This document shows, one piece after another, positions 23,345 to 52,600 of a stretch of 64,000 bases of DNA (position 1 is its first letter; each line of letters opens with the position of its first letter). The position numbers were made by a program, and so were the translations under genes. The notes beneath the pieces are model-generated. The model had not been told where the DNA came from. It worked only from the letters and a program-made list of their open reading frames with translations, and did not search any database. The stretch lies in assembly GCA_051362555.1 (NCBI GenBank), contig CM120641.1, positions 1,550,001 to 1,614,000 of the forward strand. Direction: 5' to 3'. The DNA is from Lingula anatina (lineage: Eukaryota; Animalia; Brachiopoda).

Positions 23345-24245
23345 TGATTATAAAGTCATGGATCTGGAAGTTGACAATTTTTGCCCATTGAAAAGAGCAC
23401 CATAGTTGGGCAAAAGTAGATAGGCCTATCATCTTTCTCTGAAGCAATCATTAAGGAAAGAATATTGCTTTACACTGATACATAGTATAGGCCTATGGTG
23501 GGGAGTGATTAGCATATAATAAATCTCTAGGTTTTTTTTTTCTTGTAACATGCTGAGGAAAAGAGCTGACAAGATCTTGTTGGCCTGCATGCAGACAGAA
23601 ATTATTGAATGAATCTACTGGTACTTAATTACCATGTCTCTCAGCCTCTTTGTCTTCAGTTGTCAATAGGAAATACCAGCAGATTGAATCAACTTAGTTA
23701 TTATTTCATAAATTTACTTTGGTTTTTATACAGACATAAGCCATTTGCTTTATTTTGCTCTGGTTTGACATCGAATAAAATGTCTAAATTTCTCCATCTT
23801 AGGTCAGAATGTGAGGCATTATAGTTATTGTTATTACTAGTACAAGTTTCATAAAAAAATATAAACAGGACAGTAAAACAAGATTCAGACGGATTGTTAA
23901 TATAGCAAATGGTATCATCAATAACACTACATTATGAGCTGTTATTCAATTTACTGAATTTACCGCTATTTAATGGTGGCTAAATTCTTTTTCTGTTAAT
24001 TGATGTTTCACAAGTACTTGCATCATTTACACGTGTATATACTAATGTATTCTGCTGATGTAATTCTCTGTTCTATGGAATATATGTCAATTATAAGTAA
24101 ATGGGACACACCTAGGGATGTTAAAATATCACTTGATGCTATATTAATTTGTTTGTAATTGTCTGTTGTTTAAAATTTTATCACAATTCTATTTTCATTT
24201 AATAAATTCTAACAAGATGTTTTTCGGGAATATAAACACCATATA

Positions 24246-27149: not shown

Positions 27150-27242
27150 GACTCCCGGTAGCAGACTCAGGAAATTACACGCCATAGAGTTGCCCTCATA
27201 ACAATAGTGTGCCGAGCAGCACAGCTTCTACACAACGCAAAG
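27150..27242 (+). other. Probable non-coding first exon of the galectin-like gene
   Basis: GC-richer block ending AAAG|GTAGGT. The next acceptor (tttttactcctag|, exon starts 27902) opens directly on ATGATG. Confidence 0.5.
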
Positions 27243-27901
27243 GTAGGTTCGTAGAGGAAGTGTGCTGTATTGAGAAAAATTATTTTGTAATGTGCTGTCT
27301 CCATATGTTTTAACCAGTGAAGGCTGACGTGATATGTTTGAGTTAACTCAGGTGGAATATGTGGCAGTGCTAAGTACTTGTGTTATTAATTTATTAATAT
27401 TTATTTATTTTCGTAACAAAATTCCTGTTATATGCATTTAGTTTAGACAGAGTGAAGAGATTTTTGTCAATTTTACAAATTTTGAATTAAATAAAAGTTT
27501 GAATGCTCCTCATATATTGTGACGTCTGTCTTTTCTACACAGTTTTTGTGCTTGACAGATTTTGTCTTTGGATGTCTGATTCATGCACAAATGTAGGTCA
27601 AAAGTTTTAACATATTTTTTTATTCCTCATGAATCAATATTTAAATCAAATGACACTCACCACAAACCAAACAATTTGTGAGTACACCTGAGAAAAAATG
27701 GAAGTGAAATTGAAGGCTCAAATTTGATCACGTATTCATGTACCAGTACACTCGTACCGACCTGATGTGTGTTTCCGTTTATATCTAGGAGATATTGCTA
27801 AAGTAAGCCACTGGGTTTGTCTCAACTATGTTTTCATGTACATTTCACACCCATGAAAAAGAGTACTATTTCTCCTTTCTATGTGTATTTTTTACTCCTA
27901 G

Positions 27902-30900
27902 ATGATGCGGCAATACCCATATACAGTAGAGGTGACCAAACCACTAAGACTTGGAACTGTTGTAGAAGTACAAGGAGTTCCTATTGCCGGGGCAAATGAG
28001 TGAGTATCATCTATACAAGGCCATATGTCTCTGCAAAGAAACTGGAAGAGCAACATTCTGGCTATGCTCAATAGTTATTAAATCCCTATGTTCTTTTTTT
28101 TATGTCATGGAAAATAAGTGTAATCTATGTGTTGGGAGGGAATTCATGGAAAGAATTATTTAGCTTGTGTAATACATGTTTGGAAGACGAAGGCCAAGAT
28201 ACGTATGTATTATAGTTACTCTGTTGCTGACTGACTCCAGTGGCAGATTTAGAGGGGGGGGGGGGGGACGTCTTTGTATCCGTAGACATCCCTTCAAATA
28301 ATCCTAGATCTGCTCCTGCACGTATTATTTTGAATGCACTTTGTTCTTTTAGAGCCACATTGTTAAGGTTACCTTCCTTAATTATCAACATACTAATGGT
28401 TTGGGAGTTCCTCACCTCCTGACCTGTCGTTCTTGAAAGCTCGATTCCTCCTCCGCCTCCCCAGAGGAATACAATGGTAGGATTAATGCCCTGAGTTCAC
28501 TTTCAAGATGGCAGGTCGCATTATATACTTCCTCTAGCCTGACAGGGTTTATTGGAAATTTGAAAAGACTTGGAAGGAGGGATATTAGGGAAAAGAGAAA
28601 AAAAGAGCTTGAGTAATTATTTGATCCAGAGGAAGGAAACATTGCCAGAATGTCTTTTTTTCCCTAGATTGTGTTATGTGGCTAAGATATTTGTAGCATA
28701 TAGAATATAAAAGTTTCAGGTTTCAATGGCAACCAAATTTGAAATTAAGGGCACCTCAGTTTCATTACCATTCATGAAATAGGGCATGGCTATCCTTCAC
28801 CCCCCCCCCCCCCAAAAGGCCCACAAACCCCACCTAAATTGCCTCTCATGTTAACAATGAATATTTAAAAATATTTTTGTAGATTTGTGGTGAGCCTTTT
28901 AGTCCAGCGACCAGGGGCGAGACAGGCAGACATTGCTTTACAGATGAAACCACAGCTCAATGGGAGCACAGAGATAGGCTGTGTCTCAATAATAGCTGAC
29001 GAGCAGGACGAACAGATCAACTACTTCCCGGTCTTCCCGTTCAGTCATGATCATTCATTCTGTTTGGAAATAACAGTGAAAGAGAGTTACTTTCAGGTAG
29101 GGTGATTTTTTCCCCATTTCCATATACATGTTTAATTATGTACTAGCTCATATTCCGTTTCAGTTGGCTTTGTCTTAGGTTTTGCAGTATTTGCTGCTCT
29201 GCCTTGAAACCGGAACCACTGAATTGGTTAGTTAATGCAATTGTCATGTCTTGTTGAAGAGCACTGCATTTTTGTATGGGAACACAGGTGAAATACTTCA
29301 GTGACTAAATGCCTTATTCATCTGCCTTAATTGTACTGAAAGGAAGACCAAGTCATATATAAAAGCATAAATGCTTTAGTTAAGCAGTGGTATACCCTGT
29401 GTAAGGAGTGGAAAAATCATGCAGTCAGAACAGGGAAAAACCTCTATCATATTGTAGCTGCTGGATTTAGTTCAGATTTCACTGAAACTTGGACATAAAT
29501 AATTTGTTATTATGTCCAAGACTGAAACAACACCAAACTATAATTAATTATTTTAAACTTTAAAAAAGTTTAACAGCTGACTCCTATGTTTTTTTTTGTA
29601 TTTTGCATAAACATTTTAATACCATACAAACATTAATGTCATGTACAAAACCTGACTATTATGTCAACTAATTATATAATAAAAACAACATGAAATGATC
29701 ACCCTCCCCCCCCCAAAAAAAAATTTTTTTTCTTGAACTTTTTTTAAAATTTTGACTATTTTATAACTTTTTATAAAAGTTAATTGTTTTAAAGACATGT
29801 CAGAAAGTACATTTTATGAAGGTCTAAATTGATAAATCTTGAATTGGAATATAATAATTAGAATATATATAATAAGTGCAGCATTTCAAAAATATAATTG
29901 ATTATCACAACTTACAACAAAATCAGATTATTTTGCCGGATTATCAGGGGAGGGTTTCCTGTGTATTATAAATGCACAAGCCAATGTATCAGAAAGACAT
30001 TAGCTATATAAAGAAAGCACTACAGGTTGACGTAAAGACTGATCGAGACTGAACATTATATCTGTCTGACGTTGTCATGAAGATGGAGCTATAGTTATCT
30101 TTGAAGATTTTAAGACTTGTAGGTGAAAAGTGGTAAATGGACAATTATTCTCAGTTCTCAAAAAAAAATATATCAATCCATCCCTTGTTATTTAACTTGA
30201 GAAAAGACCTCAGAGAGCAAGGACCCTTGCCAAGACAAATAATGAACTAATATTTAACCATTAATTAATAAGTAATAAGTAGATCTGTGGCCACCAAAAT
30301 CTAATGATATGTTCCTTGGTCCACTCCTGACCTGTCCTGAAAATTTCATCAAAATCGGTTCATCACTGACAAACAAAGATAGCTGAAAACATAATCTCAT
30401 TGACAGAGGTAAGTTTGCATTCTGAAGATGTTAACCGGAAAATATGAGGTCTCCGTATTAGTACAGCTGTTAACATAACTATAAACTCTATCTAAATATC
30501 AAAAAGTCTAAAAGTTTTGTCTGTAAATGTAGTGTACCGTTAGTAATGGAGAGGCAAACACTTAAGCAAACCTTTAAGAGTCATTTAATACCCTCTTAAA
30601 CTGGAAATTGCTATGAATAATTTAGTAAGACACTATATCAAGTATTTGAACCAATATAAGTATAGCTGACTATAGCTATATATATACATACTAGTATGAG
30701 GGTAAGGTAGGTAAAATTCAGTTGCTTTAACTGGCAATTATAGGGCATTTATTTCTAACAGTAGATGCATGTAATTATATATATATATATGGAAAGTTAC
30801 CAAGCAACAGAGGATTCAGACTGACCATTTGGTGACTGCGTGACGTTCAGGTATGCGTACAGGTGAAAAGTTTACACGTAAAGACAACTTATTAAGCTTG

Positions 30901-33900
30901 AGGCTTAAAACATCTATTAAATCATGTCTGCTGGAAATTCAAAGGCACTTCTTAGCTGGTAGAAAACAGCTCTTTTTTAATACACATTTGTTGCACCAAG
31001 GATGTAATGCATTGTATTGCAAACACAAATGTAGGGTGACCTACAGTGATACAAAAGGCATTTTTTTTTTACTTGCTTCTTAAAAGTCTTTATTTTCGTA
31101 AGGCATTGGAGCAGGGGGGGAATAAAATGATTTTCAAAATAATGTCTTTTGTCACTATATAGTATTTTAAAACTTCAATTGTTTGCATTATTTTAACCTA
31201 CCTTAAATTCTCTAAAACAAAAAGGAAAACAGTCATTTCTATTCAATGAAGTGTCCTATTTGTCATAATTACATCTGATGACCTGCAACAGTCTTGTTAA
31301 TTTTAAAAATATTTCTTTTTCTCCCCTCAACTTTCAATGCATAGTGTTTGACATGGTTTACCTCATTTTTTTTTTATTTTTGCCATTTAAAATTCAGAAG
31401 GGTTAGAGAAACAAGTTGTTTTTTTAACCTGCCTATACAGTTTAAACAATGCAGTATAATGAAATTTTTATGCACACCTTCTGCTCCATTTTGGTGTGAC
31501 CCTGTATTTGCAGTTCTGTTTTGTAAAGCTGCACATGAAGTAGGTCATCGTTTTATGTTTATTTATATATATATCTATATATACGGTACGACCAGCTTAT
31601 TTTGTACACTCATTTTACTTTTCTGTTTATTATGATGTAAGGTTAATTTGATTAACATTAATTTTATTTGACAATCAACCATAAGTTGAAATGTGTAGAT
31701 ATTGATATAGATAAATTTATTAAGTACTGCATTTTGACAGAGGACAAGTAAAAAAGTCAGGTCATTAAAGTTTTAAGCATGTTTCAGAATATGTTATTGC
31801 ATGATCATCACATGAGTATTAGGACAGGAATGTTACTTGCAGATTTAGAACTGTTAATTATTATAAATCAACACACTTTATCATCAGCTTGTATCTTCAG
31901 TAATATAAACTCTAGACAAATGCACTTTTTTATTGCTGATCAAGGATGAAAAATATTTAAAGATATTTTATTTTTCTAGTTTAAAGATTATTCAGTAAGT
32001 TTTTGCTTGCATGCAAGGGTTGATAATAAATAGTTCGAGAATACTGGGTATTAGCTACAGTTACTTAATATTTAGGTGAAGGATTAATTCAAAATATGTT
32101 GTAAGTAAATTACTTAAAGCTCATTCTCAATGAAATTACCATCCTACAAACCAACTCCGATAAAAACATGCCTCCTGTTGTTTTCAACATACTCATATAA
32201 TCACCAGCTTTTGTATATTTTACTTAACGCCTGCAGGAGGGCGCATGTTTTAATCTGATTGCATTCAGCAAGAGTCCCCCTTGGAGTTAGTGAGCATTAT
32301 ATAGGTCGACAAAATTCTTCGTGATTGATAGAAAAGCTGGTTCTTTTACAATTACGGTACATTGGAAACAAAAGAAGGCGTGTTAATCTCTTAATCTGAT
32401 TACATATAGGTAGAGTTCCCGCAGGGTGTGATCAACCTACGTAGAACGACAGTTTATTGGGAATGAGGCTTTAAGATGCATTCAGATTATAAGTTATCAT
32501 TCCAGCAGGATCGATCTATATCGGCAGGGATTCTTGCTTAAGGCGCAGTTATTGTAATCAGCTTTATTGTCTGGCATGCCCCCTTGTAACTTAAAGTACT
32601 TGGATAAAGTCGGGGGAAACTTTGTGGTCCTTGATGTTCTTGTTGTTCTGTGAGGGGGCAATTGTCAGACAATTAAGCTGATTACATTGCCTGGGCCTTA
32701 GCGAGAATCCCTGCTGAGTTAGATTGATTCTGCTGAACTGATAATTTTTAATCTGAACCCAGCCTAAGATTGTCAATTCCAGATTAGTGTGGATGGGAAG
32801 CATTTAATGGACTACAGTCACCGGACACCTCCACATCACATTTCCCATGTAGTTTTGGACGGAGATGCCATTTTCCAGTCAGTAGAGTTCTTCTCAGCTG
32901 AAGAATTTCAACAGAAGTCAGATTTTAAAGCCAAGGATCTGACGTACCATGAGCGAACATTGAGTTCCGGCTATACCTCCCAATCAAGTGAGCATAACTT
33001 TGATGTAGAAAGCATGGAAGACAACTCGTTTGAGGATTCCAATTCTATTCCTCTCATAGAGCATCAGCATGGGCAGAGGTACAAAGAAAAGAGAGATGTG
33101 AATAAGTATGGTGTTGGAAATAGTGAGGAGCCTTTAAGAGACCATGTGGATTTTGAGGCACAAGTTTCACCACACAAAACTGTCTTTACTTTCAAGCCTG
33201 AAGAAAGAGATATTACTACACGATTGGTATGTAAATTAAGAATGTCACCAAAAATGTATGATATATTAAAACTGAACGACAAAATACAAGTTGTTTATGT
33301 TTAGTTTGATGGCATATAGTTAAAAAGGCAAATAAAGCAGGAAAAAATTTATATGGTTTTCAAATCAATGTGTATTGTTTGCAATATAAAACTTTCACTT
33401 AGTCGTATTTTCAGAATTCTTTTCAGATTGATTTTGAATTTGATCATTTACAACTGAAGTCATAACTTTTTACATTTAACTATAGGACTTACCCCATTTT
33501 CTTGAGATACCAGATGAGTTTGGAGTGGGACGAGTCATCTATATTGATGGAGTTGCATGGAAAGACTGCAAGTGGTAAGGATATGTATGGATTGATGAGA
33601 AAAACCTGTTTTTTTTCACTAGTTATACTGTGTGTGTGTGTGTGTGTGCGTGCGCGTGTGTGTGCGTGCGCGTGTGTGTGTGTGCGTGCGCGTGTGTGCG
33701 TGTGTTTGGAGGGGGGGGGGGGCAAAAACAGGGTACCAACAAAGCCCTAGGGAGGGTGTGTACTTAGATCCTCTTTGCAACTTTAATGGTTTACCACTGA
33801 ATAAATTAATTGATTTAAGCAGTTTGTAGAAGTAAATTGTTTTCCATAAATATGTAGAATCATTCTTGGCTTTTGTGCCAGAATTTCTCAAAGAAAACTA

Positions 33901-36900
33901 GATATGTTAGGATAAATATTTCATCATGTATAAGGTTTTGATGTTTAGTCAAGGGTATGTATGTGGCGAGTATCTCAGTTTGTGGCTCGATGACTGCAGT
34001 TTGGATGAGCAATAACCTGTAGAGGGTTCTCTACTATTGCTCTGTATTTTGGCAGAAGTCAGATATTACCAGTATTTGGCGTTGTATGATGTTTAGCATA
34101 AACACAACAACCTGAAGATTTACGTGGCGATTGCCTTGTCATTTGTCTGCATCATGATGTGTTATGCAGAATAATGGAGGTTGCTATTTCTCATCTCTTT
34201 AATTTAGATAACTGTAAAAGTTTCTTTACCCAATACTTGGTTATGGTTATAAATAATCATAGAACTACTGGTATAAAGTCTTAAGTGTATCTTGTATATG
34301 CATCCCTGAAGCATTTATGGGGATATCGTTCAGCTAATGATTTATTTCCTGCTCATGAACTGATGTGATTGAGTTTTTGGTTTCAGTCTCAGGAGTCAGG
34401 GCTGCTTGACAAAGTGTAAATTGACCCAAATTCAATACCATTTGCGAGGATAATGCTTCAAGCACTGTTTAACTACGTAAATCCTCTAATAGAGAGTTAT
34501 CAATTTTGCATGAGCCTTTTATCAAGAGGAATATTGCATATCTCACAGATTGCATGTTTCTAAGAAAATTTCTGAATACTGGTAATATAATATAACTGAC
34601 AGACTTTTTTGCCTTAAAGTGACAAAGGGTTTTGAATACATGTGAATTGCATAAGCAGGGGCGGATCCAGAGTTATTTTCTGACAGTCTTCCAATTTATC
34701 TTTGTTGATCCATCCTCCATTTTTGACCGTCTTCCGACAGAAAAAATTAGATACCCGTCAATGTAAACTTGAAAATCTGACCGTCTTCCGGAAGACCCAG
34801 AAGACGCCCTAAATCCGCCCCTGCATAAGCCTCTCTTGTTGAACAAGTGATACTTTTTGGTCATATTTTAACAGGTATACATGTATGCCATGTGATCTTT
34901 TTGTACTTGCCATAATTCATGTTGTTGCAAATTTTGAAAATTTTGTCAGTTTAAAAAGCACACATTTACCTGCATGCAAAATTAAGGTTATAGGCACTAA
35001 TACTTCCATTTCTCTCTATATATGTGCAGTCATCAATCCCATTGCTTTATAAATCTCACTGGACTTCAAAATTGTTATCCAATTACATGAATACTGCAGG
35101 AGTGACATTTTGACTTCTCATGAATGACATGTCATGGCTTTTAAATCAACTATTAATGTCACATTTTACAGAACCATAGGCAGATTTCAGATCAATTTGT
35201 ACTGAATCTCAGATGTTATAGCTTGTGAAGCTATAAAAATTGATGCAACCTTTTGGTAAATCAAGCAGCATGTGTGTTATCAAGTTTTTAATGTTAAACT
35301 CATAACTTTTGGCCTTTGATGAAACTCAGAATTCTGTGATACGTTTGTTCATTAAAAGAGAGTACAGGATTGTCTTCCCAACCTTAAAATGGTTTTATCA
35401 ATTTTGTCACATTTTCCAGAGTTAAGGGTCTGAAACCTCGATTGATCTAGCTGTTTGTTAAACGATGAAAGTATTAGTAGCATTGTGTCAAGTGTGATTT
35501 GATTTAGCAGCCTTCCAAGGAGTTCTAGGAAAAGGTCTTCCCCTTTGTGCACATTGGTGATTGATTCCGTTTTAGTTTAATCAAGTTTATCCAGTCGGAA
35601 GAAAAGTAGACATACAGATTTTAGAACAACCTTATTGAACATACCATGTATACATGGCATTTAGCTCATTTTTTGTGCACTAGTTTCTAATTAAGCCTAA
35701 GGATAATTGGAAACAACAACATTAGCGAGGTAATCCAATTCCTAACATATTAATTTTTTTCTAATTGGTTTCTTGGATGTCAATTTACCTCTTTTATTAG
35801 CCAGAAAAAGATGTCAATAGATAGATACATAGATAAATAGAAAGATAAAAAATTATGAAAGGTGTTCACTTCAGGCAAGACACCTTCTTGTAGTCTTCAG
35901 CTTGGGAAGTTGGAGAAATTGCATATTGAAAAAGAGTGCGTGTAGCTTGAAAATCTAACTGATAGAAAAGATAAAAGGTTTACTACATAATGGCATACTG
36001 CAGTTTTCACAGCAGAGGCATACAACAGGTACAAACTGATGACAAACAATAATAATTCAAGTCTTGAAAGAGACCCTTTCAGTTTCTGTTGCTCTCATAT
36101 TGCATAGAACTTCATGTTAGAAAATGTATTGCATTTACCAGTTCTCCTAAATTACATATTCTATCTGTTACCAGAGTAAATACAAGCACAAGACAAAGCA
36201 CAACAGTTTGAAAAAAGACAGGATACCCGGGCTCCCAAATATTTTATTACCTAAAACTTGTTAATTCTCTCCAGTGTCGTATGACGTTCTTTGGATACTT
36301 TTCCTGTCCCAACATTTAATTGGTATATTACCGATGTTTAATTAGTTTATTAGATAACATTAAACATCTTTTCTTTGCCTGAGTAAGGTACGTCAAGGTA
36401 CATCAATGGAAAGATAAGAAACTGATGCAGAGTTCACTGATAGGCAAGGCTTGTTTGTGCAGTTTTATGTAGCCAGAAAAAAAAGGGGTTGAAAAAGATT
36501 AAATTTTTACTACATACATGCATACATACATACATATTGCAGAGAGAGAATGCCCCCCCCCCCAAAAAAAAAAAAAAAAAAAAAAAGAAAAGAAAAAGAA
36601 AAAAAGATAGATAGATACTAGTTGATTATCTCCAGACATATTTTTTGGATGCTTTGCTTGTACAACCGTTATGAACATTTACCTGGTGTGTAGTTCCCTT
36701 TCATATTTTTTATTTTTAAGGTTTGAAGTCTGTTTGCAGACTGGCAGTGAAAAGCTCCCACACACAACAGCTGTCTTCTCATTTCGGCCAGATTTCCCAT
36801 CCAGAAGTACAACTTGTAATACATTTGTCCTGAAAAATTGGGGCCTGGAAAGAATCCAGGAAGACAACTTTCCATTTGAGGCTGGGAAACCATTTTTGAT

Positions 36901-37576
36901 GAAAATTTTGGCAAAAGAAGAAGGCTATGAGGTAAGTTGGTTTCCTTGGTAAGTTCAGGGTTGCTAGGTTACAGGGTAACTATGGAGATTCATTAAAATC
37001 AGGGTTACCGCATAAAGAGAACACATACAGGGAGGAAATTTTTCTGCCATTTGGATAATTTGATTTTGAATTCATGTAAAATGGGGATTTTAGTTCAGAT
37101 CTGCTTTTTTTTTAATGTCCAAACATTTACATTGAGTGGAAAGTGTGTAAAATATTGATGTCATTATATCAGACTATTCTCAGGAGATTTCAATAATGCA
37201 GCATCTAAGAAAGCGAATGTCTTATCTGTCAATTTAAAAAAACTATAGAAGACATTAGTGTTATAAGGGTATTTGCGTACAAATGTCATTTATTCCAAAG
37301 ATTACACAAACCGATGAGTTTGGATCACGCCAGACCTCTGCCATGATGATAGCAACCTGTGGTTGGATAATGATATTATATGGCATCTGTCTCGCAATTA
37401 CAATATCTTACATCTGTTCTCTATGTAACATCACGCAGGGTCAAGTATCCTTAAGTTACAGCAGGTGGATTTTAATACCTTTTATGTGCATTTTTATGTG
37501 ATGATTCTTTATATTTTTGAATATGATGAACTTGATCAATTTATCTTTCCCGTACAGTATTTATATCTCCTCCTGA

Positions 37577-37622
<46 letters not shown>

Positions 37623-40600
37623 AATACAATACAATAAATTTTATTTCATGTTGGTTTTAAATTGAATGGAAACATTAGCTTTACAGCTATTCTCCGACTG
37701 GGTAAGGACAAAAACATATCTACAATAATGCAATATTACACTCTCTCTCTACTGCGGGGTTGGGGAGGGGGTGCAGGAGGAAGGGGTTGGATAAAAAAGC
37801 ACATACACTTCTGAATCAAATTCTGAAACAATTCATCTGTCAGTGCCAGAAAAAGTCATTTCAGCCCCTTGAGATTCCCAATCCAAAATTTCACCTAACT
37901 TACATTTGATTTCTTAGCTAAGAAGTAGGAATCTGTCATGTGGTTTACTATATTATATCTTACATTGCGTTCAGTATGACATTTCATGGAATATCACATT
38001 ACAAATGGATTACAATAATTTTCTGGGTTTGTTTCATAGACACAGACATAAAAATACAAACAAAACGTGCCCTTGTGGTTGACCTTCGTGTCTTAAAAAA
38101 GTGCAGCCTTAATAAAATGTATCAAAATATCATGGACAGTAAAAGAAATTGCATACATCTTCTTCACAATGTATAATAGAATGTTTCAGGCTTTTAGTAA
38201 ATCTGCACGCCAAACAGTTTTGGTGCCATAAGCCAGTTGTTTTCCCAAAGGGCTTTGTGGTTGACCACATGTTTTGTTATTAGGCTTGCTGTGAATTGTT
38301 ATTGCAAAGATATTCTTGCCTGCAGGACTTGTAAATCATTGACATGTGGTATGGTTTAAGACAGGCGGATAATGATGTATTGTTAACATATAGTAATAGA
38401 CGAGATATGTAACAGAATATACAAATCAAGATGGAAATAAAATTTAGTTTATTTTTTTTAATGCAGATGAGTTAATTTTTTTATATTTTGTAATCTAGCA
38501 CTGAGAACAATCATGTGTTGTATTTATGTCTCTAAACACTTTAAACACTACACATGTCAGTGGTTGGCGGGCTTTAATCGAAATATTTGTAAGTGATTTC
38601 TAACATTAGTTCACTTGTGATGAGACACATAAGATTACACTTATGTGGCTAATATAAAATTAATATATTTGTCTTAACTTCTCTCTTTGTTTTTGTTTTT
38701 TTTAAGGTATTTGTAGATGGCATCCTGTACCTTGAGTTCACTCATCGCCTGGCCATGGAGAGAGTGACACATGTCATGGTCAATGGCAACGCTGATTTCT
38801 ATACAGTAGAGTGCCCGGATGAATTGGTAAGGAAACCCCCACCTTTCCCCTCCCCACCCCACCCCACTTCCTATCCTGTCCTATCCTTTTTGCCTTTTTA
38901 AACAGGTTTTTGTGTGTTGAAAGCCAAACAGTACACCAGAGGCCAACAACCCTTTATTAATTGTTCCTGTGAATACAACAGTATATTGATGCCTGGCCAT
39001 TCACCTGACAGAAATATTGCATGTGAGTAGAGGTATATTGTATACCTTAACCCATCTTCTACATTTCAGCTAGCATTTGCCCTTAGAAATGCATTGTGTT
39101 GCACATGCCTGAATGCATGGTTTTAAAACATGTACAATTTATAATATAATATTACTATTATATAATATTAATTATTTTACTTTTTCTTTAATTCATCAGT
39201 TAAGTTTATTTGGCATCATGAAGTATTCATGACATTCAAGTATCATTCTGATTGTGTTTATTTTCAATACATAGGAGCTGCCATATTGCAGTGCAATTCC
39301 TGGTGGCCTACATGAAGGCAAAACCATATTCTTTACTGGGACCCCTCTAGGAGATGGCTGCAAGTAAGATATATATGAACTATTATTAACATAATTTACA
39401 ATTGAGATATAAAATTTTGGCAAATGAAAAATTTAATGAGATTAGGGAAATATACATTTTTGCTTTACTTTGCTGAAAAAAAAATAGGAAAGAAGTGTTA
39501 GAAATAATCAGTGCAAGGTTCTTAGGTCCCAGGAGAGTAATTTCCTGCTAAGCCAGGGAAATGGTTTTCTTATTGACTAGAATGTTTATGAGTAATATTT
39601 CATGAAGCATGACGTGATTTTTAGCCAAGCCGTTTACCCTAGTGGCCTGGATGACTGCTGAAAAGCTATAAGCATTTCAGGCTTTCATAGGCCCCATTCA
39701 GAATAGGGGACTAACTAGTCCGAGGGTCAAATATGGCCAACCCACTTGAATACTTCCCCACAGGATATCTATTCAGTGTCTGTTAGGGGATCAGATGGCA
39801 AGCTTTGACCCTTGGATTAGTAAGTCCCCTATTCTGAATGGGGCCATACTAGGGATGTTAAAGGGGGTTAGCACACCCTTCATTTTTCATCTGTTTCTTC
39901 TTCTTCAATACCTTTACGCTGACTGGCATGTAGGCTGTGTTTGCCTGCCTTAAGCACTTCTAGTATGAGAGCTTGAAGCATGTAGAGTATTTCAAGTCTT
40001 TCAATGGCTTATGAAGAGATAAATGTATGAGCCAAAATTAGATCAAATCATGTTATTTGAGATAAAAGCTTTCATTGCTTGAATGTGAAGTAAAACCAGG
40101 CAGCCGGCACCACATTAAGGCTTGTTGATCAGTGATAATTGTGAACAAATGGGCCTATTCACATTGAATGGTAGTTCTATATGTTATAACCAGTTGTGTA
40201 TACCCAAAGGTATATTTACTTGACAGTCATATGAGTGCGATGGATGATTCATCCATTGTATATTATCTGTTAATGGGAAATTTAGTAAAATGACAATTTT
40301 ATTATTGTCCAATGTATATTGCCACTTTCTTAACTTCAAAAATGGCTACATGTACAGCGCACTGGCAGTTTTGGGATGATACTGATAGAACACAGATGAC
40401 AGGAAAGGGAAAGAGAAGATAACATAAAGACAAAAAAACTTTTTGTGCCTTTCCTTGTCTGCATGGTGAATAAATTAGCTATAGATGGCGCATACAGTCT
40501 CCGTGCCCTGCTCCTTCCTCTTATTCTCATCTCCAGTGTGATTATCCTCAAAACTTCTCTAATTCTTTTTCCCATTTTTTTCCCAGTTTTGAAGTTGGAT

Positions 40601-41203
40601 TACAATGCAGTACAAAGCCTGGATCGCACATTCCGTTTTACTTCAAAGTGAACTTTGCTCCTGACGCCAAGGCGACCACTGCTTCATTCATCAACCATGT
40701 GTGGGACGCTGGGGAGAAGTTAGAGGGACCGTTGCCTTTTCAGCCAGATAAGAAATTTGTGATGAAGGTTGTTGTGGAACCTGAATGCTTCCGGGTGAGA
40801 TTGCTAGTGCATTGTGGTAGTTGGGATTGTGGTAGTTGGGATTGTAGTGTTTCCATTTGATAGTACACAATGCTGTGATGTGAACCTCACTTGAGAGACA
40901 AATCACACATAATTAATTCATGTATCATTTTCATCACGTTTTACATATACATTATTTTTATATGAAAATTGCTAACAGTGGTAATCATCTTCATTCCTGT
41001 GAGGTAGATATAAACCATATGATCATGTTTTAATTTGTATCAGGTGAAAGTTGATGATGAGAACTTCCTGGAATTCAAGCATAAACTCCCCTATGAGAGG
41101 ATCACACACGTGACAGTGGACGGGGACTTGGCACTGTATTCTGTCACCTACAGGGACCGCTGGGTGGGTAAAACATAAGTATATGCACAGTTGTGTGTGT
41201 GTA

Positions 41204-41244
<41 letters not shown>

Positions 41245-42076
41245 ATGTACAGGACTGAATGCATGTACGTGTGCATATGTGCAGACGCAACATGCGTGAA
41301 CTTGTATATTTATGCATGTACATGTCTATGCTTGTCTACACATACATGCATTTAAACTTGCAGAGCTGTTGCAATAGTCAGAAAGTACATAATGGTCCAA
41401 AGGTTTGATAGTCCGAATTAATGCATGAATAAAGTGTACAGTGTACTGTATGTAATAAAGTTAAGTTCATCAGAGGCATGTACATAAAACCAATGAACCT
41501 TAGGATTATCAAGACACCGACGAATTTATGATAATGCTTGATTTGTATATAAAGCTTAAGGAGTGCATAAAAATGAATAAGATACATTTAAACATCATTT
41601 TGAAAAGGAAGTGAGGTAGGATAAACAAAAACATACGGCCACCAAATGACAGTCATAAAAATATTGCCCACCAAAACACAGCTGTAAAAACATTTTCCTG
41701 TCACAGTGTCACTCTTGGATGTGTACATGCAACCACATGTAAAGAACATACCTGAACATGCTCTGGAGTGATTGGGCATATCATTTGATATTAGTGATCA
41801 TATTGTACATCATTATTGTAGAGAGAGATATCTATTGATTGAATATTGAATATATGGTTGATGACATGGTGTTACATTTCATATTCTCATCCATAGGGTT
41901 TATATATTCATGCATGTTTTGGAATAAAATTCTCCCATGCTACCAGTATTACAAATCATAATTTATGACATAATTGTATAATTGATGTTATATTTCAGAT
42001 TGGTCGCAGACAGAGTAAGGCGTACCACATCGTCAAGTCTTGCTGCCCAGTATGTGTGGGGTGCGTGATAATGTAA
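27902..42076 (+). CDS. Three-domain galectin-like protein (556 aa) with degenerate CRDs and C-terminal CaaX (CVIM)
   Basis: Exons 27902-27999, 28883-29096, 32783-33226, 33486-33574, 36721-36931, 38707-38826, 39275-39363, 40587-40794, 41044-41163, 41999-42076 total 1671 nt with consistent phases. Galectin-fold hallmarks repeat three times: YPY/LPH/LPY..IP.G..G, FEV.L, FPF..G.PF...I, V.VDG....F.HR...ITHV.V.GD. Confidence 0.88.
30281..30412. mobile_element. Degenerate non-autonomous repeat, possibly Helentron/HINE-like
   Basis: AAATTTCATCAAAATC core, also present in reverse at ~12555-12580. Ends in a small hairpin (AATCTCATTGACAGAGGTAA). Family assignment is from memory, not a search. Confidence 0.35.
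32235..32320. mobile_element. Arm fragment of the foldback family at 6949-7490
   Basis: TTAATCTGATTGCATTCAGCAAGAGTCCCCCTTGGAGTTAG matches the reverse complement of ~6960-7000. Confidence 0.6.
33629..33722. repeat. (TG)/(CG) mixed microsatellite plus poly-G
   Basis: Read directly; alternating purine-pyrimidine tract. Confidence 0.9.
34656..34823. mobile_element. Intact 168-bp MITE
   Basis: TIR CAGGGGCGGAT / ATCCGCCCCTG with flanking direct repeat CATAAG (34650-34655, 34824-34829). Confidence 0.9.
37579..37620. repeat. (CT)n microsatellite
   Basis: Read directly. Confidence 0.9.
39690..39845. mobile_element. 156-bp Harbinger-like MITE
   Basis: Perfect 23-bp TIR GGCCCCATTCAGAATAGGGGACT / AGTCCCCTATTCTGAATGGGGCC with a 3-bp ATA duplication. 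Confidence 0.88.
41193..41239. repeat. (TG)n(GA)n microsatellite
   Basis: Read directly. Confidence 0.9.
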
Positions 42077-43798
42077 CATCACAGGGGCAGATTTTACTGG
42101 TTTCTGAGTCTTGGCCAAGGAGGTTAGATTTCTCAAAATACCCTGTATGATATTAAATTGATGCCTTGACTTCTGGATAGACTCTAGGAGCAATGATGCA
42201 GATGGATTGAAAACTTTTTTTAATAATAGTTTGATCATTCCAGGACATGCAAATAAATCTCAAGTGCAATATTGTTGTTGTTGAATTTAGGTATGTTGCA
42301 TTCAATCCCATAAATACAAGATAGATTGAAACTTGAAATATTCTAGAAAGAATGGTCCCACTGTAGATATTGAACAGTGCCTTATTGTGCCAATAGAACA
42401 GAAGATGGAGGGCTTAATTCAAAACACTAGTGTCTCACTTCATTCTGATGTTGGTGTTGTTTGCCTTAATATCCTCAGTTAGTCATGAAAAATTGCCTTA
42501 TTGTAACTTAATTGGTTGTAAAACTTTTATGTTAAAACACCAGCTACAAAATTAAAAAAAAGAATGGTTCTATGCTTGCACCTACCAAGCAAAAAAATAG
42601 ATAAATCCAGTGCCTGAGAAAAAATATGTTTGTAATTTTTGTTTCGGCAAATATTTGTTGCTTTGCTGTGCAGGCACAACAGGAAAAAGTTGCTTGAATA
42701 TTGTATTGCAAGGAGAGTAAATCTCTGTTAATTTGTTGTATTTTGAATACTTTTATTCTGCTGTTATCTAGATCTGTTGCAATTTATCTTATACAATAAG
42801 GTGGAATATCTGGTAAGCACGCCATTAATTAATAATGAGAAACAAATGTCAAGGAAAAATTGCAACTTTTAACTTTGGTTTTGTACCCTTATAAGTAGAG
42901 GTAATATGTTTAGCAGGTGTCAATAACAAAAGTGATTCTACTGTAGAATTTGTAGAACTTCAGGTGGAATTTGTAAGTTTAGTTGTGTGTATTTCCAATA
43001 ATTTCTACCAAAATAAAAGAAAAGGGCAAAAAGATCATATGCTCACCAAGAAGCATACCAGGGTTATTAAAAAGTCCCATATTCTGTCTCCCCTTTCTGG
43101 TAACTATGGATATGATCAGGTGTGGGATGTAACTGGGAAAGTATATTTGCAGCACAAATTTGGCAGTTATGAATAGCTTGAGATATTCCAGATTTAATAA
43201 CATTTTATAGGAATCATACTACACTAACGTGTACTAGCAGCACTTATTATAATTGTCTGGTCAACTATAATGCAAATTTATTAACATTACATCTATCAAG
43301 GGGAAGATACATGCTATACTTCCCATGTTTTACCCTAAATGAAAAGTACTTTTTATTTCAAGATTTAATATTATTGATATACCTTTTTTTGGGTCTTGTT
43401 GGGGCTGTATAACCGATTTAGGACTGTATAATGCTATTAAAGCATAATCAAAGTTTATTTTAGAGACATATTTACAGGAAAAATGCATTTGTTAAAACAT
43501 GAAGTTATCATATGCTTATTCTTAAGACAGAAAGCATTATATTATATTATATTTCAGATTTCTTATAAAAATATATATATATGTTAATTTCATAGTGAAA
43601 TATTTAAAAACAGTGTTTATCTATACTTGGATGTGTGAACAAGATATAAGTGGACACAAGGTAATATTATTGTTTATTTCTTGCTCATCTTAGGACTTCT
43701 CACTATGGATATCTTTGTTTTAACAAAGCTATATGTAGTTTCTTTCTAATTCCTCATTAGCACTTTAACATAGTGGATGTTTTCTTTATGAAATGTGA

Positions 43799-43808
43799 AA
43801 TAAATAAA
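43799..43808 (+). terminator. Probable poly(A) signal of the galectin-like gene (3'UTR about 1.7 kb)
   Basis: Overlapping AATAAATAAA followed by a T/GT-rich stretch. Confidence 0.45.
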
Positions 43809-44905
43809 GGCTTATTTTTTGAAAAAGTTTGTTTCTCAGCATTCATTATAACACCTGTCATATTTTGAAACATTTTTATTTTAACAGTAAAAATTGTGCA
43901 TAGGAGTTGAAACAAATACTGAATTGATGATGACTGTTAAGTTATAGTTTTTCAGGTCCAAGGAACACATGATGTGCACTTAAGTAGTGAGCCACTTTGT
44001 GATCATTATAACACACAGAGTATACAGTACGACCAAAGAGCACATTGCAAAAAAAAAAAAAAAAAAGAGAGAGAGAGAGAAAGAGAATCATCTGCCCAGT
44101 AATGAATGGAATGAATAATGATGATAATATCTGATGGAAATAGCATTATGTAACCAAACTATACTCTTAAAATAGACGACAACCACGACTCTGCATGTTA
44201 GCACGGAAATTCGTGCGTTAGCAGTCCTATTAGAGTTTTATGTAAAGCGCAAATGAAAGTGGTAATACACAGCTTTTCGTGCTACATTAATTTGCGTGAT
44301 ATTATTAGGTATGAAGAAGCGAACTAATGTATTTTTAGTTTGCAATGAATTACGGTTGAAACTAAAATGAACTATGGTTAATACTAACATATATAATTCT
44401 TAGCCATCCCTATTTTTCTTTCTGCAATTCTATCGCTAAAAATCTAAATTAAACGTGGCAATACAAGTAGATGTATTCTAGAAAACCACATTATGAAATT
44501 GTATTGGTAATTTTAGAAAATAGTTCATTTGGCACAAAGGGAAATCTCTATTTCCTGACAGTTTGGCACACGCAGACTGACGTCAAAATATCACATGTTC
44601 AAGCTAACAAGTCAAGTCAAGCTCTTTTTGTTTCATCGAATAAGATATATCGCTACTATTCACAGATGCGCTTCTCAATTGCTGTAGATTTTAGTTGCGC
44701 TCAAAGGTTCTTGTTTCCAATTCAACCACTAAATCGCTGTTTTTACAGGCAAATACCAGATTACATGTAACTGTCGCCTGCTTGTACTAAACTCATAGTA
44801 AGCGACGTAAACTGAAACAAACTGAACACGACATGGCTATTTAGCTACATGTAAAAAAAACACTTATTTCTAGAATCTCATCCAAGATTGTTACAGTAAA
44901 ATAGA

Positions 44906-45904
44906 CTAGGCTTCACCCTCCTCTCCCGCATTGTCTTCTTCTTCTTCAGCATTTTCTATATGTTTCTTTTTCTCTGGTAGAAAACCATCAAATATATCAA
45001 CAACACTCTCTGAGTTCAGCTTGATCAGCGACTGGTAAATTGAGCGTTCTTTTCTTAAAGAGGCTTCTGTTCGCATTGAATGAAGTTCCTCAATACTGCT
45101 AGATAATGGAATTTTTTTCAAAGGACGAGACTCAGGTTGATACTTGCTTTTCCTACTTGGCGTCCCCCCTTTCGAAGCCAGGGCTAAAAACTCCGCTTCC
45201 TGAGCTTGCATGTCGTCAAAATGTTTCAAAAGTTTCCTGTGTATTTCTTTTCTGCTTTCACTCAGTTCTTTTAATTTCTTTTGGCGTTTCAGTTTGTTCT
45301 CGGCACGCAGTTCCTCTTTCGTTTTCTGTGGTTCTTTTTTCACTTTTTTTACCACTGTTTTGACGGGAGCTGGTGCGCCTATGCGAGGAAGGACAAACGC
45401 CATGGAGCGAACTTTTCCCCAAGCTGCGGGCTTGGCTGTCTTTTCCCCTTCGACTTCAGCATTAACTTCGTCTTTTTCCTCAGGGATTGTTGACATGTGT
45501 ACTTCTGTCTTTTCTTCACTTTGAGCGTTTTTGTCGATATCCTCCTTCCTTACGACCTGAACTTTTTTCAACATAGTGTAGAAGGATTCTTGTTTACTTT
45601 GGAATTTCGCCATTTTCTTTCGATCTTCCTCTTTCCGTGCTCTGGCTATTTCAAGTTGTCTTTGCCTCAGCTGTTTTAATCTCATCTCAACGTCCGACTG
45701 GTTACTGACCAGAGCCTCGGCGTGAAGGCGTTTGGCGAAGTCCATCTTAGTTTTCTGGTATTCACAGACCTGTTGCACGAGCTGGTTCACTCTCTTGGTC
45801 CTGCGTTCCGCACGCTGTCCGAGGTCGAAAATCAACAACGCTGGGTTGTCAACTTCGCCAGTATGGGCGTTGGCAAGTTTTGTTGTTCCCGAGAGTCCCA
45901 CCAT
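44906..45904 (-). CDS. Uncharacterised single-exon 332-aa Lys/Glu/Arg-rich, probably coiled-coil protein
   Basis: 999-bp open frame in AT-rich DNA, AAG-ATG-G context, in-frame stop 11 codons upstream, helical charged segments and an acidic tail. No family recognised. Confidence 0.8.
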   Translation of the reverse strand: MVGLSGTTKLANAHTGEVDNPALLIFDLGQRAERRTKRVNQLVQQVCEYQKTKMDFAKRLHAEALVSNQSDVEMRLKQLRQRQLEIARARKEEDRKKMAKFQSKQESFYTMLKKVQVVRKEDIDKNAQSEEKTEVHMSTIPEEKDEVNAEVEGEKTAKPAAWGKVRSMAFVLPRIGAPAPVKTVVKKVKKEPQKTKEELRAENKLKRQKKLKELSESRKEIHRKLLKHFDDMQAQEAEFLALASKGGTPSRKSKYQPESRPLKKIPLSSSIEELHSMRTEASLRKERSIYQSLIKLNSESVVDIFDGFLPEKKKHIENAEEEEDNAGEEGEA

Positions 45905-46816
45905 CTTTTTTCTGTGATCACAAGTCTTGTGTTTTTACGTAATTATTTCATTTCTTGTCCCTCCTTGCCAGTTAGTGACTGTAAAAAGCCTGAGAAGCAG
46001 CATTACCCGGGGAGTTATGGTGGAACTGCTATGCATGTTATTACTCCTTCAAATATCACAGTCTGAAAGCTACTTTTCTTCAACGTAAACAAAGCCATGT
46101 TTTGCATCTACATTTCCCTTGCTCTTCATGTGAGAGTGACGCGTTTTAAGTAAATCTGTTCAAAGTCTAAAATTCACGTTTGTGCACCACATTATAAGCG
46201 ACCCGTCCTCGACACTACGCATGTAGTTATGTGACTGAAACCTAGACACACTAGCACTGGAAACAAATAATAATATCGCCACAGTTGATTGAAATAACTT
46301 AATCCGATTCTATTCATTCACAATCGAATCGATCGGATAATGCACCGAGTGGTTTGTGTTTACGTTTGAATTAGGAAGTACAATGTCAAATGCAACAGTA
46401 GGGGGCAACGGGCTTGGAAATGTTTCTATAAAATCTCTTTAGCCAAAGATTGGCATATAGATCCTTGCTTAACCGAGATTTAACCTGTTTTGATTGACAC
46501 ATTACACCGTTATTGTGAATTAAGCGTATGAAATGCTAAACTAAGGCCCTTTCGGACCCCGTGCGGCTCTTTCTTATCAAATCAAACACTGTCAATTTTT
46601 GAGAGTTCGTCAAATGAGCCAAGTTTTGCGTGTAAAGAACGTAATTTTAGTTGGAAAAAAGAAGAAAACTTTGTTTTGCGTCCGCACCGGAGCCAATGAT
46701 TGAAAAGCGAAAAAGCAAACCGCTATCGTCGAATGTTCACCCCCCCCCCCCCCCCCCAACGCACACACACACTCCCTTAGATCAGTTTTATCAGTAAAAT
46801 TAATCTGGGCACGTGA

Positions 46817-49690: not shown

Positions 49691-52600
49691 CTACAAAGGC
49701 CCCACAGGCGTGGTGTGAGGAGCTATCATATCATCAAACAGTGGCGTATACACCACATGGTCTGCCGAATATCCGAACGCCTGTGGGCCAACAACTTTCA
49801 ATGCTTCAGGAGATCGCATGACAGGCGAGACTGGGAGGGCAAATACGACCACACGAAGCCCATAACGCATTTCCTCGGTAGGGATGGGTTCACCGGCATC
49901 CTTGGTTACCATGGTGATCAAGTCTGGTGTACATGCTAGTGTCTGAAATATAGGAAAATATTTCTTGAAACCTGATAGGATTTTTCAGAATAGGCCTAAC
50001 TTCACATGCCTACACTTTTTGACTAAGAGTACCGTGAATTGGATAGATCGCCCAAGTATAAAGATGAGTAATTTTGAGTATTGAAACATCCTATATTTTA
50101 CAGACCTCAAAATTATGTCCATCTTTCGTATGTCTGGCAACAAGAAGCTCATTCTGAAAATCCACATGTAAGTGCTGGCCTGAGAAAGGCTCCGTGCCTG
50201 CTACCTTGATCTTTCCCCTTGTGAAACCAGCCTCTGTGGACCTTTCCACATCCACCACCTTTTTACAATAAAGAAATAACAAAAATACATGATAATCATA
50301 AACTTTCATAATTCTAAAAAACGCTGAGGAGAAGTCACAAAAATTATATAAAACTAAAATTAAAAATTCAAATTAATCACATAATGGAAATGGTTGAAAG
50401 AAGAAAAATGAACTGATTTTAAAATTGTAGAAGTCACTCTCCATTAGCAAGGGTTGAAACTTATGGTGACCATATTTTTATGAAAAAACTTGATGAGATA
50501 GCTTAGATGAGACGTTTTTAACATTATTTCCTAGTAACATGGGGGTCCATCAAGTCACCCCTCAGCAAAGAAAGTCCTGATTTCCTAGGCATGTAGATGA
50601 CAGTGTAACAATGAGCTTAAACCATCATCTATACATTCTTATTACTTTGATGATGGTGCCTGTTAATCTTCCATTTAAATAAGTGGATTTCAAATTAATG
50701 AGATCATTTTCTGGGAAAAAGCTTTTAGGCAGACAATTATTGTACTCTACAAAATTACAAACACACTCTACAACATCTGATACGAGACGGCAGGAAAATA
50801 TCATTTGAAATGTACCTGCCGTCTGCTTGTAACATAAAGCTATAAATAATGTTGTCTTTAATCATCCTACCGAAATAATCACTTAAGGTGCACTTGGTAA
50901 TGAGTATTACATGATGGACTTTTAGCTCATCATGAAATATATTTGGAAAGCAAAATCCGTTTTCAAAATATCACCTTGCCAACCAACAGCACTTTCCCCC
51001 CACTCTCCTGTATCACAGCATCCACAATGGAAGACTTTTGTTTGCGTGCACATAATATACTGTTTCCCAGCCTCCAAGTCTGGCTCATGGAGTACAGAAC
51101 AGTGGTCTTCATCATCTCATCCTTGTTCAGGGGAGCCATAGTGAGCCCTGCAGCTAACCTGAAAAAAAAGGTGCAGTGATTTGTTTACTTGGCTGTTTAT
51201 TTGTTTGCTAGTTTAATCATTCACACAATACTGGCCAAGACAATTCATTAGTGGGGTTATATAATAAATCTCAAACAATCAATACTCTATGCTTGTTTGC
51301 TAATGTCATATGGATGATGGTGTGAATGTCTGTGGTTACTTGCACACATTTTCATTGAAGAAAACATGTATCTACTATGATGTATATAATGAAACAAAAG
51401 AAAAATCTTCTTGTAACCACTGGATTCAGGATCATATTTCATCATAACATGATGTCAAACCAAATATAGGTTTTTGAGGTAACAAAAGACTTAATGAGCC
51501 TCTTTTCAGGTATACATGTAGTATTCAGTCTGGATTTCAAACCTGATTCTAGTTATTACCAAGAATGCATTACCAAGGTGTTACTTATAATTACAATACA
51601 ATGCACAATGTGCTAGTAAATACAGAGGCGAATTGAGACCGTCTTCTGGGTCTTCCGGAAAACGGTCAGATTTTAAAGTTTATATTGATGGGTATCTATT
51701 TTTTTCTGTTGAAAGACCATCAAAACTGGAGGATGGATCAACAACGATAATTTGGAATACTGTCAGAAAATATCTATGGATCCCCTCTTGAAGTAATTGT
51801 GTGTGACCATATTTGATTCTTTATTACACCATTAGCAGTTTTCAATTTCTCATTCAGGAAGACAGAAAGGGAAGGCAGAAACTGCCTCTTTCATTTCTTC
51901 TCTCTGTCCCTCTAATACTATCTCTCACTCTTATCAAGTGATGGTCACATGTATAACATCAAGTAATACTAATAACTTGACACAACTACAAAAATATTAA
52001 TAGTTTTCTTTCTAAATTACGTGACATAACTTTTTTTACTACCTCAATAAAATCACTTAGAGTAATGTTGATAATTAAATCAACGAGATTACTATAGCAA
52101 CTGATGACAGCAAATTACATTTATATTTGAACAGAATCCCCATGGTATACGCCTGTGTTGACATAACAACATACTGTACTAGTACAAATAAATTTATCAG
52201 GCTTCAGCTTGTTCCCAAATGGAATTTCTTTGGTACTTTTTACTTAATTAACACCATCTTAAATTGCTTTTATGGATTCAAGAAGTGGAAAATGAAACAA
52301 ATAAAATCAAATCCCCAAGGTTAGTGAACTTACAAGCCTTTTTTTCTTGGATAAATTCAATAATTGAAAAATGACACCATCAAAATCATCAAAATGGCTC
52401 AAATCCAGAAAAAAATCAATTAATAAAAATGTAGTCAGAATAAAAGAAGAAAAGATAAAAGAGAACAAAAATTCTCACAGAATGTAATTCGATAATAACC
52501 CTTCAGCTAAATGAGATAAACTTCCTGTGGTAATATTCTGATGCAAAAAAAAAATATAAAAATAATAATAATAATAATAAAAAAATAAAAATAAACTAAA

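What the first reader, a model, noticed from the sequence alone, without database searches (positions are those of the whole stretch)
41999..42076. Galectin-fold protein with a Ras-style lipidation tail (SCCPVCVG-CVIM*) on its own terminal exon
Seen: splicing the 120-nt exon 41044-41163 (same length as its paralogous exon 38707-38826) to the acceptor at 41998 gives IGRRQSKAYHIVKSCCPVCVGCVIM-stop, and the protein has no N-terminal hydrophobic signal. Known: CVIM is the K-Ras4B CaaX farnesylation motif, upstream cysteines and basic residues are the second membrane signal in H-/N-/K-Ras, and galectins are normally soluble and unlipidated. Inference: a farnesylated, probably palmitoylated multi-galectin scaffold tethered to the cytosolic face of membranes. 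I do not know a described example of this architecture.
Basis: partly seen in the sequence, partly recalled or inferred. Interest (0 to 1): 0.85.

Follow-up and report, generated by a model that had tools for sequence, protein, structure and literature searches.

The report
Sugar-blind triple galectin with farnesylation tail
A lamp-shell (brachiopod) gene makes a spliced RNA for a protein with three galectin-type domains that have lost most of their sugar-binding residues and that ends in a lipid-attachment signal like that of Ras, so it is likely a membrane-anchored protein scaffold rather than a sugar-binding lectin, although the lipid itself is only predicted.

Summary
RNA reads join donor 41163 to acceptor 41999 (53 reads in 3 of 7 runs laid, all from one study of a diverged population); no joint at the alternative donor was listed. 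The ten-exon model gives a 556-aa protein identical to an uncharacterised Lingula anatina record. It has three galectin-fold domains, no hydrophobic N-terminus, and a disordered tail ending in CVIM with three upstream cysteines. The two read differences inside the CaaX codons are synonymous.

None of 152 other galectin-like proteins fetched ends in a strict CaaX. The only orthologue-like hit (Owenia, partial record) stops before the tail, so conservation beyond Lingula is untested.

Best reading: a farnesylated, probably palmitoylated scaffold on the cytosolic face of membranes. No lipid, location or partner has been shown. I found no prenylated galectin in the library searched, though palmitoylated galectin-1 is reported. 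The scan had not noted this protein before. New variant of a known kind; interest 0.5.

The parts
27151..27242 (+). candidate 5' non-coding exon (no ATG, in-frame stop)
   Evidence: AG/GT ends and in-frame stop; X7 depth in bin 26814-27479; its joint was not among the rows shown, so it is unconfirmed
27902..27999 (+). coding exon 1, start ATG; start of domain 1
   Evidence: joint 27999>28883, 15 reads in X7; same start as P0001
28883..29096 (+). coding exon 2, core of galectin-fold domain 1 (0 of 7 sugar-binding residues)
   Evidence: joints; Pfam PF00337, 3 stretches
32783..33226 (+). coding exon 3: end of domain 1, predicted helix 143-165, disordered Ser/Glu/Asp-rich linker to about residue 250
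   Evidence: joints; AF2 model; composition
33486..33574 (+). coding exon 4 (89 nt), start of domain 2
   Evidence: joints
36721..36931 (+). coding exon 5, core of domain 2 (keeps N315, W322, E325; H, N, R, R replaced by S302, R304, D306, I327)
   Evidence: joints
38707..38826 (+). coding exon 6 (120 nt), end of domain 2
   Evidence: joints
39275..39363 (+). coding exon 7 (89 nt), start of domain 3
   Evidence: joints in X7 and X1
40587..40794 (+). coding exon 8, core of domain 3 (keeps only W461)
   Evidence: joints
41044..41163 (+). coding exon 9 (120 nt), end of domain 3; donor GT at 41164
   Evidence: joints
41999..42076 (+). coding part of the terminal exon: 25-residue tail (532-556), disordered in the model
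   Evidence: 53 junction reads in X7-X9; pLDDT under 50 for 533-547 and 550-556
42041..42055 (+). upstream cysteines C546, C547, C550 (candidate palmitoylation sites, at -7, -6 and -3 from the CaaX cysteine)
   Evidence: sequence; palmitoylation is inferred
42062..42076 (+). CaaX box CVIM (C553) and stop
   Evidence: sequence; read differences at 42064 and 42070 are both synonymous
42077..43805 (+). 3' UTR of the terminal exon; AATAAA at 43799
   Evidence: continuous depth in X7-X9 falling off after about 43800; signal position

Best explanation
The gene is spliced to encode three galectin-fold domains that lack most sugar-binding residues, followed by a tail ending in CVIM that is predicted to be farnesylated and probably palmitoylated, so the protein likely acts as a membrane-tethered protein-binding scaffold on the cytosolic side of membranes. 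Shown: exon structure, C-terminus, fold (model), loss of the binding residues, purifying selection. Inferred from general CaaX biology: cytosolic synthesis, farnesylation of C553, removal of VIM and methylation at the ER, palmitoylation of one or more of C546/C547/C550, and trafficking to plasma membrane or endomembranes as for H-/N-Ras. Inferred and weakest: the rigid domain 2-3 pair sits near the membrane and binds proteins through non-sugar surfaces, while domain 1 reaches out on a roughly 100-residue flexible linker.
For: Junction and C-terminus. Fold: Pfam PF00337 E 5.9e-79 with 3 stretches; AF2 with an 88-row alignment, mean pLDDT 80.9, 352 residues at 90 or more; Foldseek single-CRD matches at about 1 A rmsd to galectin-4, -7 and -8. 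Binding residues kept: 0, 3 and 1 of 7, whereas 268 of 321 aligned domains keep 5 or more (residue list from PMC3396283, passages). Selection: 23 of 30 coding differences shown for X7 are synonymous against 21% synonymous sites; both differences inside the CaaX codons are synonymous, seen in 36/36, 30/30, 28/28 reads (42064) and 35/35, 23/30, 29/29 reads (42070). CVIM was listed as 100% prenylated in a yeast assay table (PMC10320760, passage); X = Met directs farnesylation, and palmitoylation follows farnesylation in H-Ras (PMC13524398, passages). Galectin domains bind proteins without sugar: galectin-1 binds the Raf RBD (PMC4834570, abstract); galectin-8 is solved with an NDP52 peptide (4han title).
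Against: No lipid, location or partner is measured. No orthologue with an intact C-terminus was found: the Owenia record is partial, and two word-based searches returned only P0001 and P0041. 0 of 152 other fetched proteins end in a strict CaaX, so the tail may be a Lingula-only addition. The within-CaaX synonymy rests on two sites (about 0.03 by chance with equal rates), and the variant tables were truncated (302 and 286 rows not shown). The junction was seen in one study only; 4 of 7 runs showed none. Domain 2 still keeps N, W and E, and all three domains have K or R at the Asn46 position, so another ligand in the groove is possible.
Confidence: 0.62

Rival explanations
1. The protein is prenylated but still binds a small acidic ligand (phosphoinositide head groups, sulfated or otherwise unusual glycans) through a remodelled groove, acting as a membrane-tethered sensor, for example of damaged endomembranes, rather than as a plain protein scaffold.
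For: K55, R304 and K442 all sit at the Asn46 position; only 15 of 321 aligned domains have K or R there, including domain 3 of the Owenia protein. Trp68 is kept in domains 2 and 3.
Against: His44 and Arg48 equivalents are lost in all three domains, and the replacements differ between domains and between Lingula and Owenia. No binding data.
Confidence: 0.17
2. The farnesyl group works as a protein-binding handle or a conformational switch: the protein stays largely soluble with the lipid tucked into one of its own domains or a chaperone, and is released to membranes on a signal or on palmitoylation.
For: Galectin-8 N-CRD binds farnesylated K-Ras4B, with a modelled pocket flanked by D25, D28, E133, D136 (PMC7017085, passages); domain 2 keeps two of these four (D262, E370). 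Farnesyl switches are known, e.g. Ykt6 (PMC13524398).
Against: Direct binding of galectin-1 to H-Ras was disputed (PMC4834570, abstract and section titles). The galectin-8 pocket is only a model, and I did not test how common the two kept acids are among galectins. Three upstream cysteines favour stable anchoring.
Confidence: 0.1
3. The tail is not lipidated; its four cysteines bind a metal or form disulfide-linked oligomers after unconventional secretion, and the CVIM end is incidental.
For: The CCPxC pattern recalls the end of von Willebrand type C repeats and CxxC metal sites (recalled, from no call). Galectins are secreted without a signal peptide (PMC3396283). Conservation outside Lingula is not shown.
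Against: Pfam finds no family in the tail at E up to 1; the tail is unstructured in the model; CVIM sits exactly at the C-terminus and is a strong prenyltransferase substrate, which a cytosolic protein would meet; composition-based chance is about 0.0005.
Confidence: 0.08
4. The CaaX exon is a minor or mis-annotated isoform and the main product ends otherwise.
For: An alternative GT lies 4 nt downstream of the donor; 4 of 7 runs laid showed no terminal junction.
Against: In the three runs that express the gene well, the only terminal joints listed are 41163/41999; depth is zero in intron bins 41186-41316 and 41579-41709 and continuous over the 3' UTR. Four NCBI accessions carry the identical protein.
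Confidence: 0.03

Closest known systems
Tandem-repeat galectins (human galectin-4, -8, -9; lophotrochozoan 2- and 4-CRD galectins, including Lingula galectin-4-like P0015)
   Same: CRD sequence and fold (best PDB sequence hits galectin-9 and -8, E about 1e-25); three exons per domain; no signal peptide. Three-CRD forms are described as rare in lophotrochozoans (PMC8878817, passage) and in sea cucumber AjGal1 (PMC10343441, passage).
   Different: Binding residues are lost; there is a 110-residue acidic linker and a C-terminal CaaX exon. P0015 keeps four H-x-N-x-R-type triads and has no such tail.
Galectin-related proteins GRP/LGALSL and mammalian GRIFIN
   Same: Galectin fold without carbohydrate binding, regarded as co-opted (PMC3396283; PMC10343441).
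   Different: GRPs are described as single-domain vertebrate proteins; I found no report of a lipid tail on them. Orthology was not tested; the nearest relative found is an annelid protein.
H-Ras / N-Ras / K-Ras4A membrane anchor (farnesyl plus palmitoyl); K-Ras4B (CVIM plus polybasic)
   Same: CaaX with X = Met, upstream cysteines, some basic residues, on an unstructured tail.
   Different: No GTPase domain; no hexa-lysine run. That CVIM is the K-Ras4B box is recalled; the calls show it only as a model substrate.
Galectin-1/-3/-8 as Ras nanocluster scaffolds or farnesyl chaperones
   Same: Sugar-independent use of a galectin domain at the cytosolic membrane face, next to a farnesylated tail.
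   Different: There the galectin and the farnesylated tail are on separate proteins; here they are one chain. No Ras or Raf link is shown for this protein.
Owenia fusiformis CAH1791775.1 (P0041, partial, unnamed)
   Same: 37% identity over domains 2-3 with the same short junction; each domain pairs with its counterpart in a 321-domain tree (local support 0.90 and 0.91); also lacks Asn46 and Arg48.
   Different: The record stops inside the last domain, so its C-terminus is unknown.

Membership tests
Galectins (strict) | CRD sequence similarity and beta-sandwich fold | tested here: met
Galectins (strict) | Conserved His44, Asn46, Arg48, Asn61, Trp68, Glu71, Arg73 | tested here: not met
   0, 3 and 1 of 7 kept; domain 1 is less certainly aligned at the 61-73 positions
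Galectins (strict) | Beta-galactoside binding | not testable with these tools
   needs a binding assay
Galectins (strict) | No signal peptide or transmembrane helix | tested here: met
   best 19-residue hydropathy 1.28 overall and 1.19 in the first 40 residues; hydropathy only
Galectins (strict) | Each CRD encoded by three exons | tested here: met
   98/214/part of 444, 89/211/120 and 89/208/120 nt with the same phases; rule from PMC10343441
Galectin-related proteins (GRP/LGALSL type) | Galectin fold with degenerate binding motif | tested here: met
Galectin-related proteins (GRP/LGALSL type) | Single-CRD, prototype-like architecture | tested here: not met
   three domains
Galectin-related proteins (GRP/LGALSL type) | Orthology with vertebrate LGALSL | not tested
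   no named LGALSL row was placed in the tree
CaaX-prenylated proteins | Cys at -4 of the true C-terminus, aliphatic a1 and a2, X = Met | tested here: met
CaaX-prenylated proteins | Isoprenoid actually attached, aaX removed, methylated | not testable with these tools
   inferred from PMC13524398 and PMC10320760
CaaX-prenylated proteins | CaaX conserved in orthologues | tested here: inconclusive
   kept in the diverged reads of X7-X9; Owenia record partial; no other orthologue
H-/N-Ras-type dual lipid anchor | Cysteines a few residues upstream of the CaaX | tested here: met
   C546, C547, C550; palmitoylation itself untested
K-Ras4B-type anchor | Polybasic lysine run next to the CaaX | tested here: not met
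   4 K/R in the 25-residue tail, none within 8 residues of C553
Ras GTPases | GTPase domain | tested here: not met
   only PF00337 found at E up to 1
von Willebrand type C repeat | Multi-cysteine repeat ending in CCPxC | tested here: not met
   0 Pfam families on the 25-aa tail; only four cysteines present

The most novel reading that the evidence does not exclude
This is the first recognised member of an old lophotrochozoan branch (brachiopod plus annelid) of prenylated pseudo-galectins that joins in one chain the two halves of the vertebrate galectin-Ras module: a Ras-type lipid tail and galectin domains that bind farnesyl or signalling proteins, working as a self-anchoring nanocluster scaffold or farnesyl switch.
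Probability: 0.12. Interest if true: 0.8.

Novelty: new variant of a known kind. Interest (0 to 1): 0.5.

Why it matters
Galectins are treated as soluble lectins that reach membranes by binding glycans or partner proteins. A galectin-fold protein with its own encoded prenyl anchor and no sugar site would be a natural test case for sugar-independent galectin function on the cytosolic membrane face, including the disputed farnesyl pocket. The limits are that CaaX tails are grafted onto many folds, that the tail is so far seen in one genus, and that no partner or phenotype is known.

Tried and rejected
No whole genome is held for this window, so Lingula paralogues and the prenylation enzymes could not be surveyed. 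The look-up of sequencing runs listed no indexed RNA holder, only 9 raw-read runs added by species label; 7 of the 9 were laid, X5 and X6 were not. A single-sequence AF2 model was useless (pLDDT 31.7) and was replaced by an alignment-based one. Orthologue hunts: an exon search among longer proteins and a full-length search each returned only P0001 (1 of 33 and 1 of 4067 candidates); a two-row profile of domain 3 plus tail with P0041 returned only P0041 (1 of 800). The representative search listed 150 of 951 hits, so 801 weaker hits were not inspected. Both Atlas searches gave ordinary galectin clusters. The domain tree used 321 of 525 domains; proteins of 700 aa or more were left out. Rejected: alternative donor, intron retention (would end after four residues), N-terminal signal peptide, transmembrane tail, K-Ras4B-type polybasic anchor, VWC remnant. 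Literature searches for a prenylated galectin showed none in the rows listed: 30 of 34, 20 of 24, 3 of 3, 11 of 11, 25 of 92, 2 of 2 and 20 of 466. One search gave nothing relevant. The Lingula immune-gene survey (Gerdol et al. 2018, PMID 29278680) is not held and may list this gene among three-CRD galectins. PMC7127388 on GRP is also not held. No supplements were read. Earlier scan notes held nothing on this sequence or on galectins in this genome. No complex prediction was run because no specific binding pair is claimed.

Full report
Observation. The stretch 41999-42076 follows an AG acceptor and encodes 25 residues ending CVIM-stop. Raw RNA reads laid on 24150-44100 gave joints for all nine introns of a ten-exon gene in run X7. 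The terminal junction, donor 41163 to acceptor 41999, was seen in 19, 13 and 21 reads of X7, X8 and X9 and in none of X2; X1, X3 and X4 showed none. It is listed in two rows because one allele has a synonymous Arg codon two codons before the donor. No joint at the alternative donor was listed, and depth continues through a 3' UTR to about 43800. The spliced frame is 556 codons with one stop and equals P0001, an uncharacterised Lingula anatina protein with four NCBI accessions. X7-X9 are one study and are mostly 90-99% like the window, so they stand for a diverged population. X1 matches the window at the listed sites but covers the gene thinly.

Is the gene under selection? Of the 30 coding differences shown for X7, 23 are synonymous, against 21% synonymous sites (binomial 1e-10, no correction for transition bias). 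These 30 come from the 40 rows shown out of 342. Two differences fall inside the four CaaX codons and both are synonymous (42064, 42070). Only 6 of 36 possible single changes there are synonymous, about 0.03 for two. This is modest evidence that the box is kept. Other differences in the tail exon could be among the rows not shown.

Anatomy. Pfam finds only PF00337, three stretches. The AF2 model built on 88 rows has three confident beta-sandwich domains (about 5-141, 254-388, 393-528), a helix at 143-165, a disordered linker at 164-245 and a disordered tail. Foldseek matches single CRDs of galectin-4, -7 and -8 at about 1 A rmsd; pTM is 0.52, so the arrangement of the domains is not known. Each domain is split over three exons with the same phases. 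There is no hydrophobic N-terminus or transmembrane stretch, and a candidate upstream exon has no ATG and an in-frame stop.

Of the seven residues that define the galactoside site (PMC3396283, passages), the domains keep 0, 3 and 1, while 268 of 321 aligned domains keep five or more. The His-x-Asn-x-Arg triad is lost in all three. All three have Lys or Arg at the Asn46 position, seen in 15 of 321 domains. The protein is therefore galectin-related, and probably not a galactoside lectin. Lingula has a separate four-domain galectin with intact triads (P0015).

The tail. C553 heads a canonical CaaX. Met at X directs farnesylation, and palmitoylation follows farnesylation in H-Ras (PMC13524398, passages). 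CVIM is listed as 100% prenylated in a yeast assay table (PMC10320760, passage). C546, C547 and C550 lie 7, 6 and 3 residues upstream. The basic residues are scattered (net +5 over residues 528-553), so the anchor resembles H-/N-Ras more than K-Ras4B. In the window, 7 of 3531 stop-ended peptides end in a strict CaaX and only this one has two or more upstream cysteines. Across real proteomes the box is estimated in 1-2% of proteins (PMC10541624, search listing).

Relatives. The representative search gave 951 hits and listed 150. None of the 152 other proteins fetched ends in a strict CaaX; one ends in C-x-x-x. One hit behaves as an orthologue: a partial Owenia fusiformis protein, 37% identical over domains 2-3, whose two domains pair with ours at local support 0.90 and 0.91. 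It also lacks Asn46 and Arg48, so the degenerate gene may be as old as the brachiopod-annelid split. Its record ends inside the last domain. Two further searches found nothing more. Whether the tail is old or a Lingula addition is open.

Mechanism. Most likely (0.62) the protein is made in the cytosol, farnesylated at C553, trimmed and methylated, palmitoylated upstream, and held on the cytosolic face of the plasma membrane or endomembranes, where its domains bind proteins. All of these steps are inferred. Precedent for sugar-independent galectin scaffolding: galectin-1 binds the Raf RBD and promotes H-Ras nanoclusters (PMC4834570, abstract and outline), and galectin-8 binds farnesylated K-Ras4B (PMC7017085, passages). 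Rivals: a tethered sensor of an acidic ligand (0.17), a farnesyl switch with a self-bound tail (0.10), an unlipidated metal or disulfide tail (0.08), a minor isoform (0.03).

Comparison with what is known. Three-domain galectins are described as rare but known (PMC8878817, passages; PMC10343441, passages). Non-binding galectin-related proteins are known. Palmitoylated galectin-1 (PMC10716590, passages) and transmembrane galectins show that membrane attachment is not unheard of. Passages of PMC11186620 added nothing. I found no galectin-fold protein with its own CaaX in the rows listed by seven searches. The library lacks most subscription journals, and the Lingula immune survey that covers three-domain galectins could not be read. 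The scan had no note on this sequence; unchecked notes on other genomes describe CaaX tails on a dead calpain and a Bcl-2 homologue, which suggests such grafts recur.

Verdict. A real, expressed and selected gene with an architecture I could not find described: three sugar-blind galectin domains plus a Ras-type dual-lipid tail on its own exon. Both parts are known kinds and the combination is so far seen in one genus. New variant of a known kind; interest 0.5.

Noticed in passing
window 10446-10715 (+): Exon of a ribosomal protein S24e gene upstream of the galectin-like gene (Pfam PF01282, E 1.8e-29).
   Followed up: partly
window about 49694-56774 (-): Spliced gene with S-Me-THD-like N- and C-terminal domains (PF06032, PF20906; five exon-sized frames hit), a family I recall mainly from microbes (DUF917).
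   Followed up: partly
window 44909-45934 (-): A 342-codon stop-free frame, Lys/Glu-rich and coiled-coil-like, with no Pfam match, converging on the 3' end of the galectin-like gene.
   Followed up: partly
window 21642-21809 and 34653-34820: Two inverted copies (90%) of a 168-nt element; reads pile up on 34656-34823 to depths of 160-900 with loose ends on both sides, as for a dispersed repeat common in transcripts.
   Followed up: no
window 39690-39845 and 32471-32767: Short intronic elements with terminal inverted repeats (50 nt at 88%; 68 nt at 79%), MITE-like.
   Followed up: no
window about 18780-20100: Degenerate tandem array that gives long open frames on both strands; not analysed.
   Followed up: no
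P0002-P0014: Very long proteins (1100-3800 aa) with 7 to 19 matched galectin stretches; not checked whether real or fused gene models.
   Followed up: no
P0074 (Aplysia LOC101859875): A 574-aa multi-domain galectin-like protein with no intact triad whose last domain falls next to domain 3 of this protein in the tree (support 0.85); it has no C-terminal tail.
   Followed up: partly
window 27902-43800, runs X1-X4 against X7-X9: The gene is well covered in the three runs of one study and thin or absent in four runs of two other studies at similar numbers of letters read, which may reflect tissue or stage.
   Followed up: no
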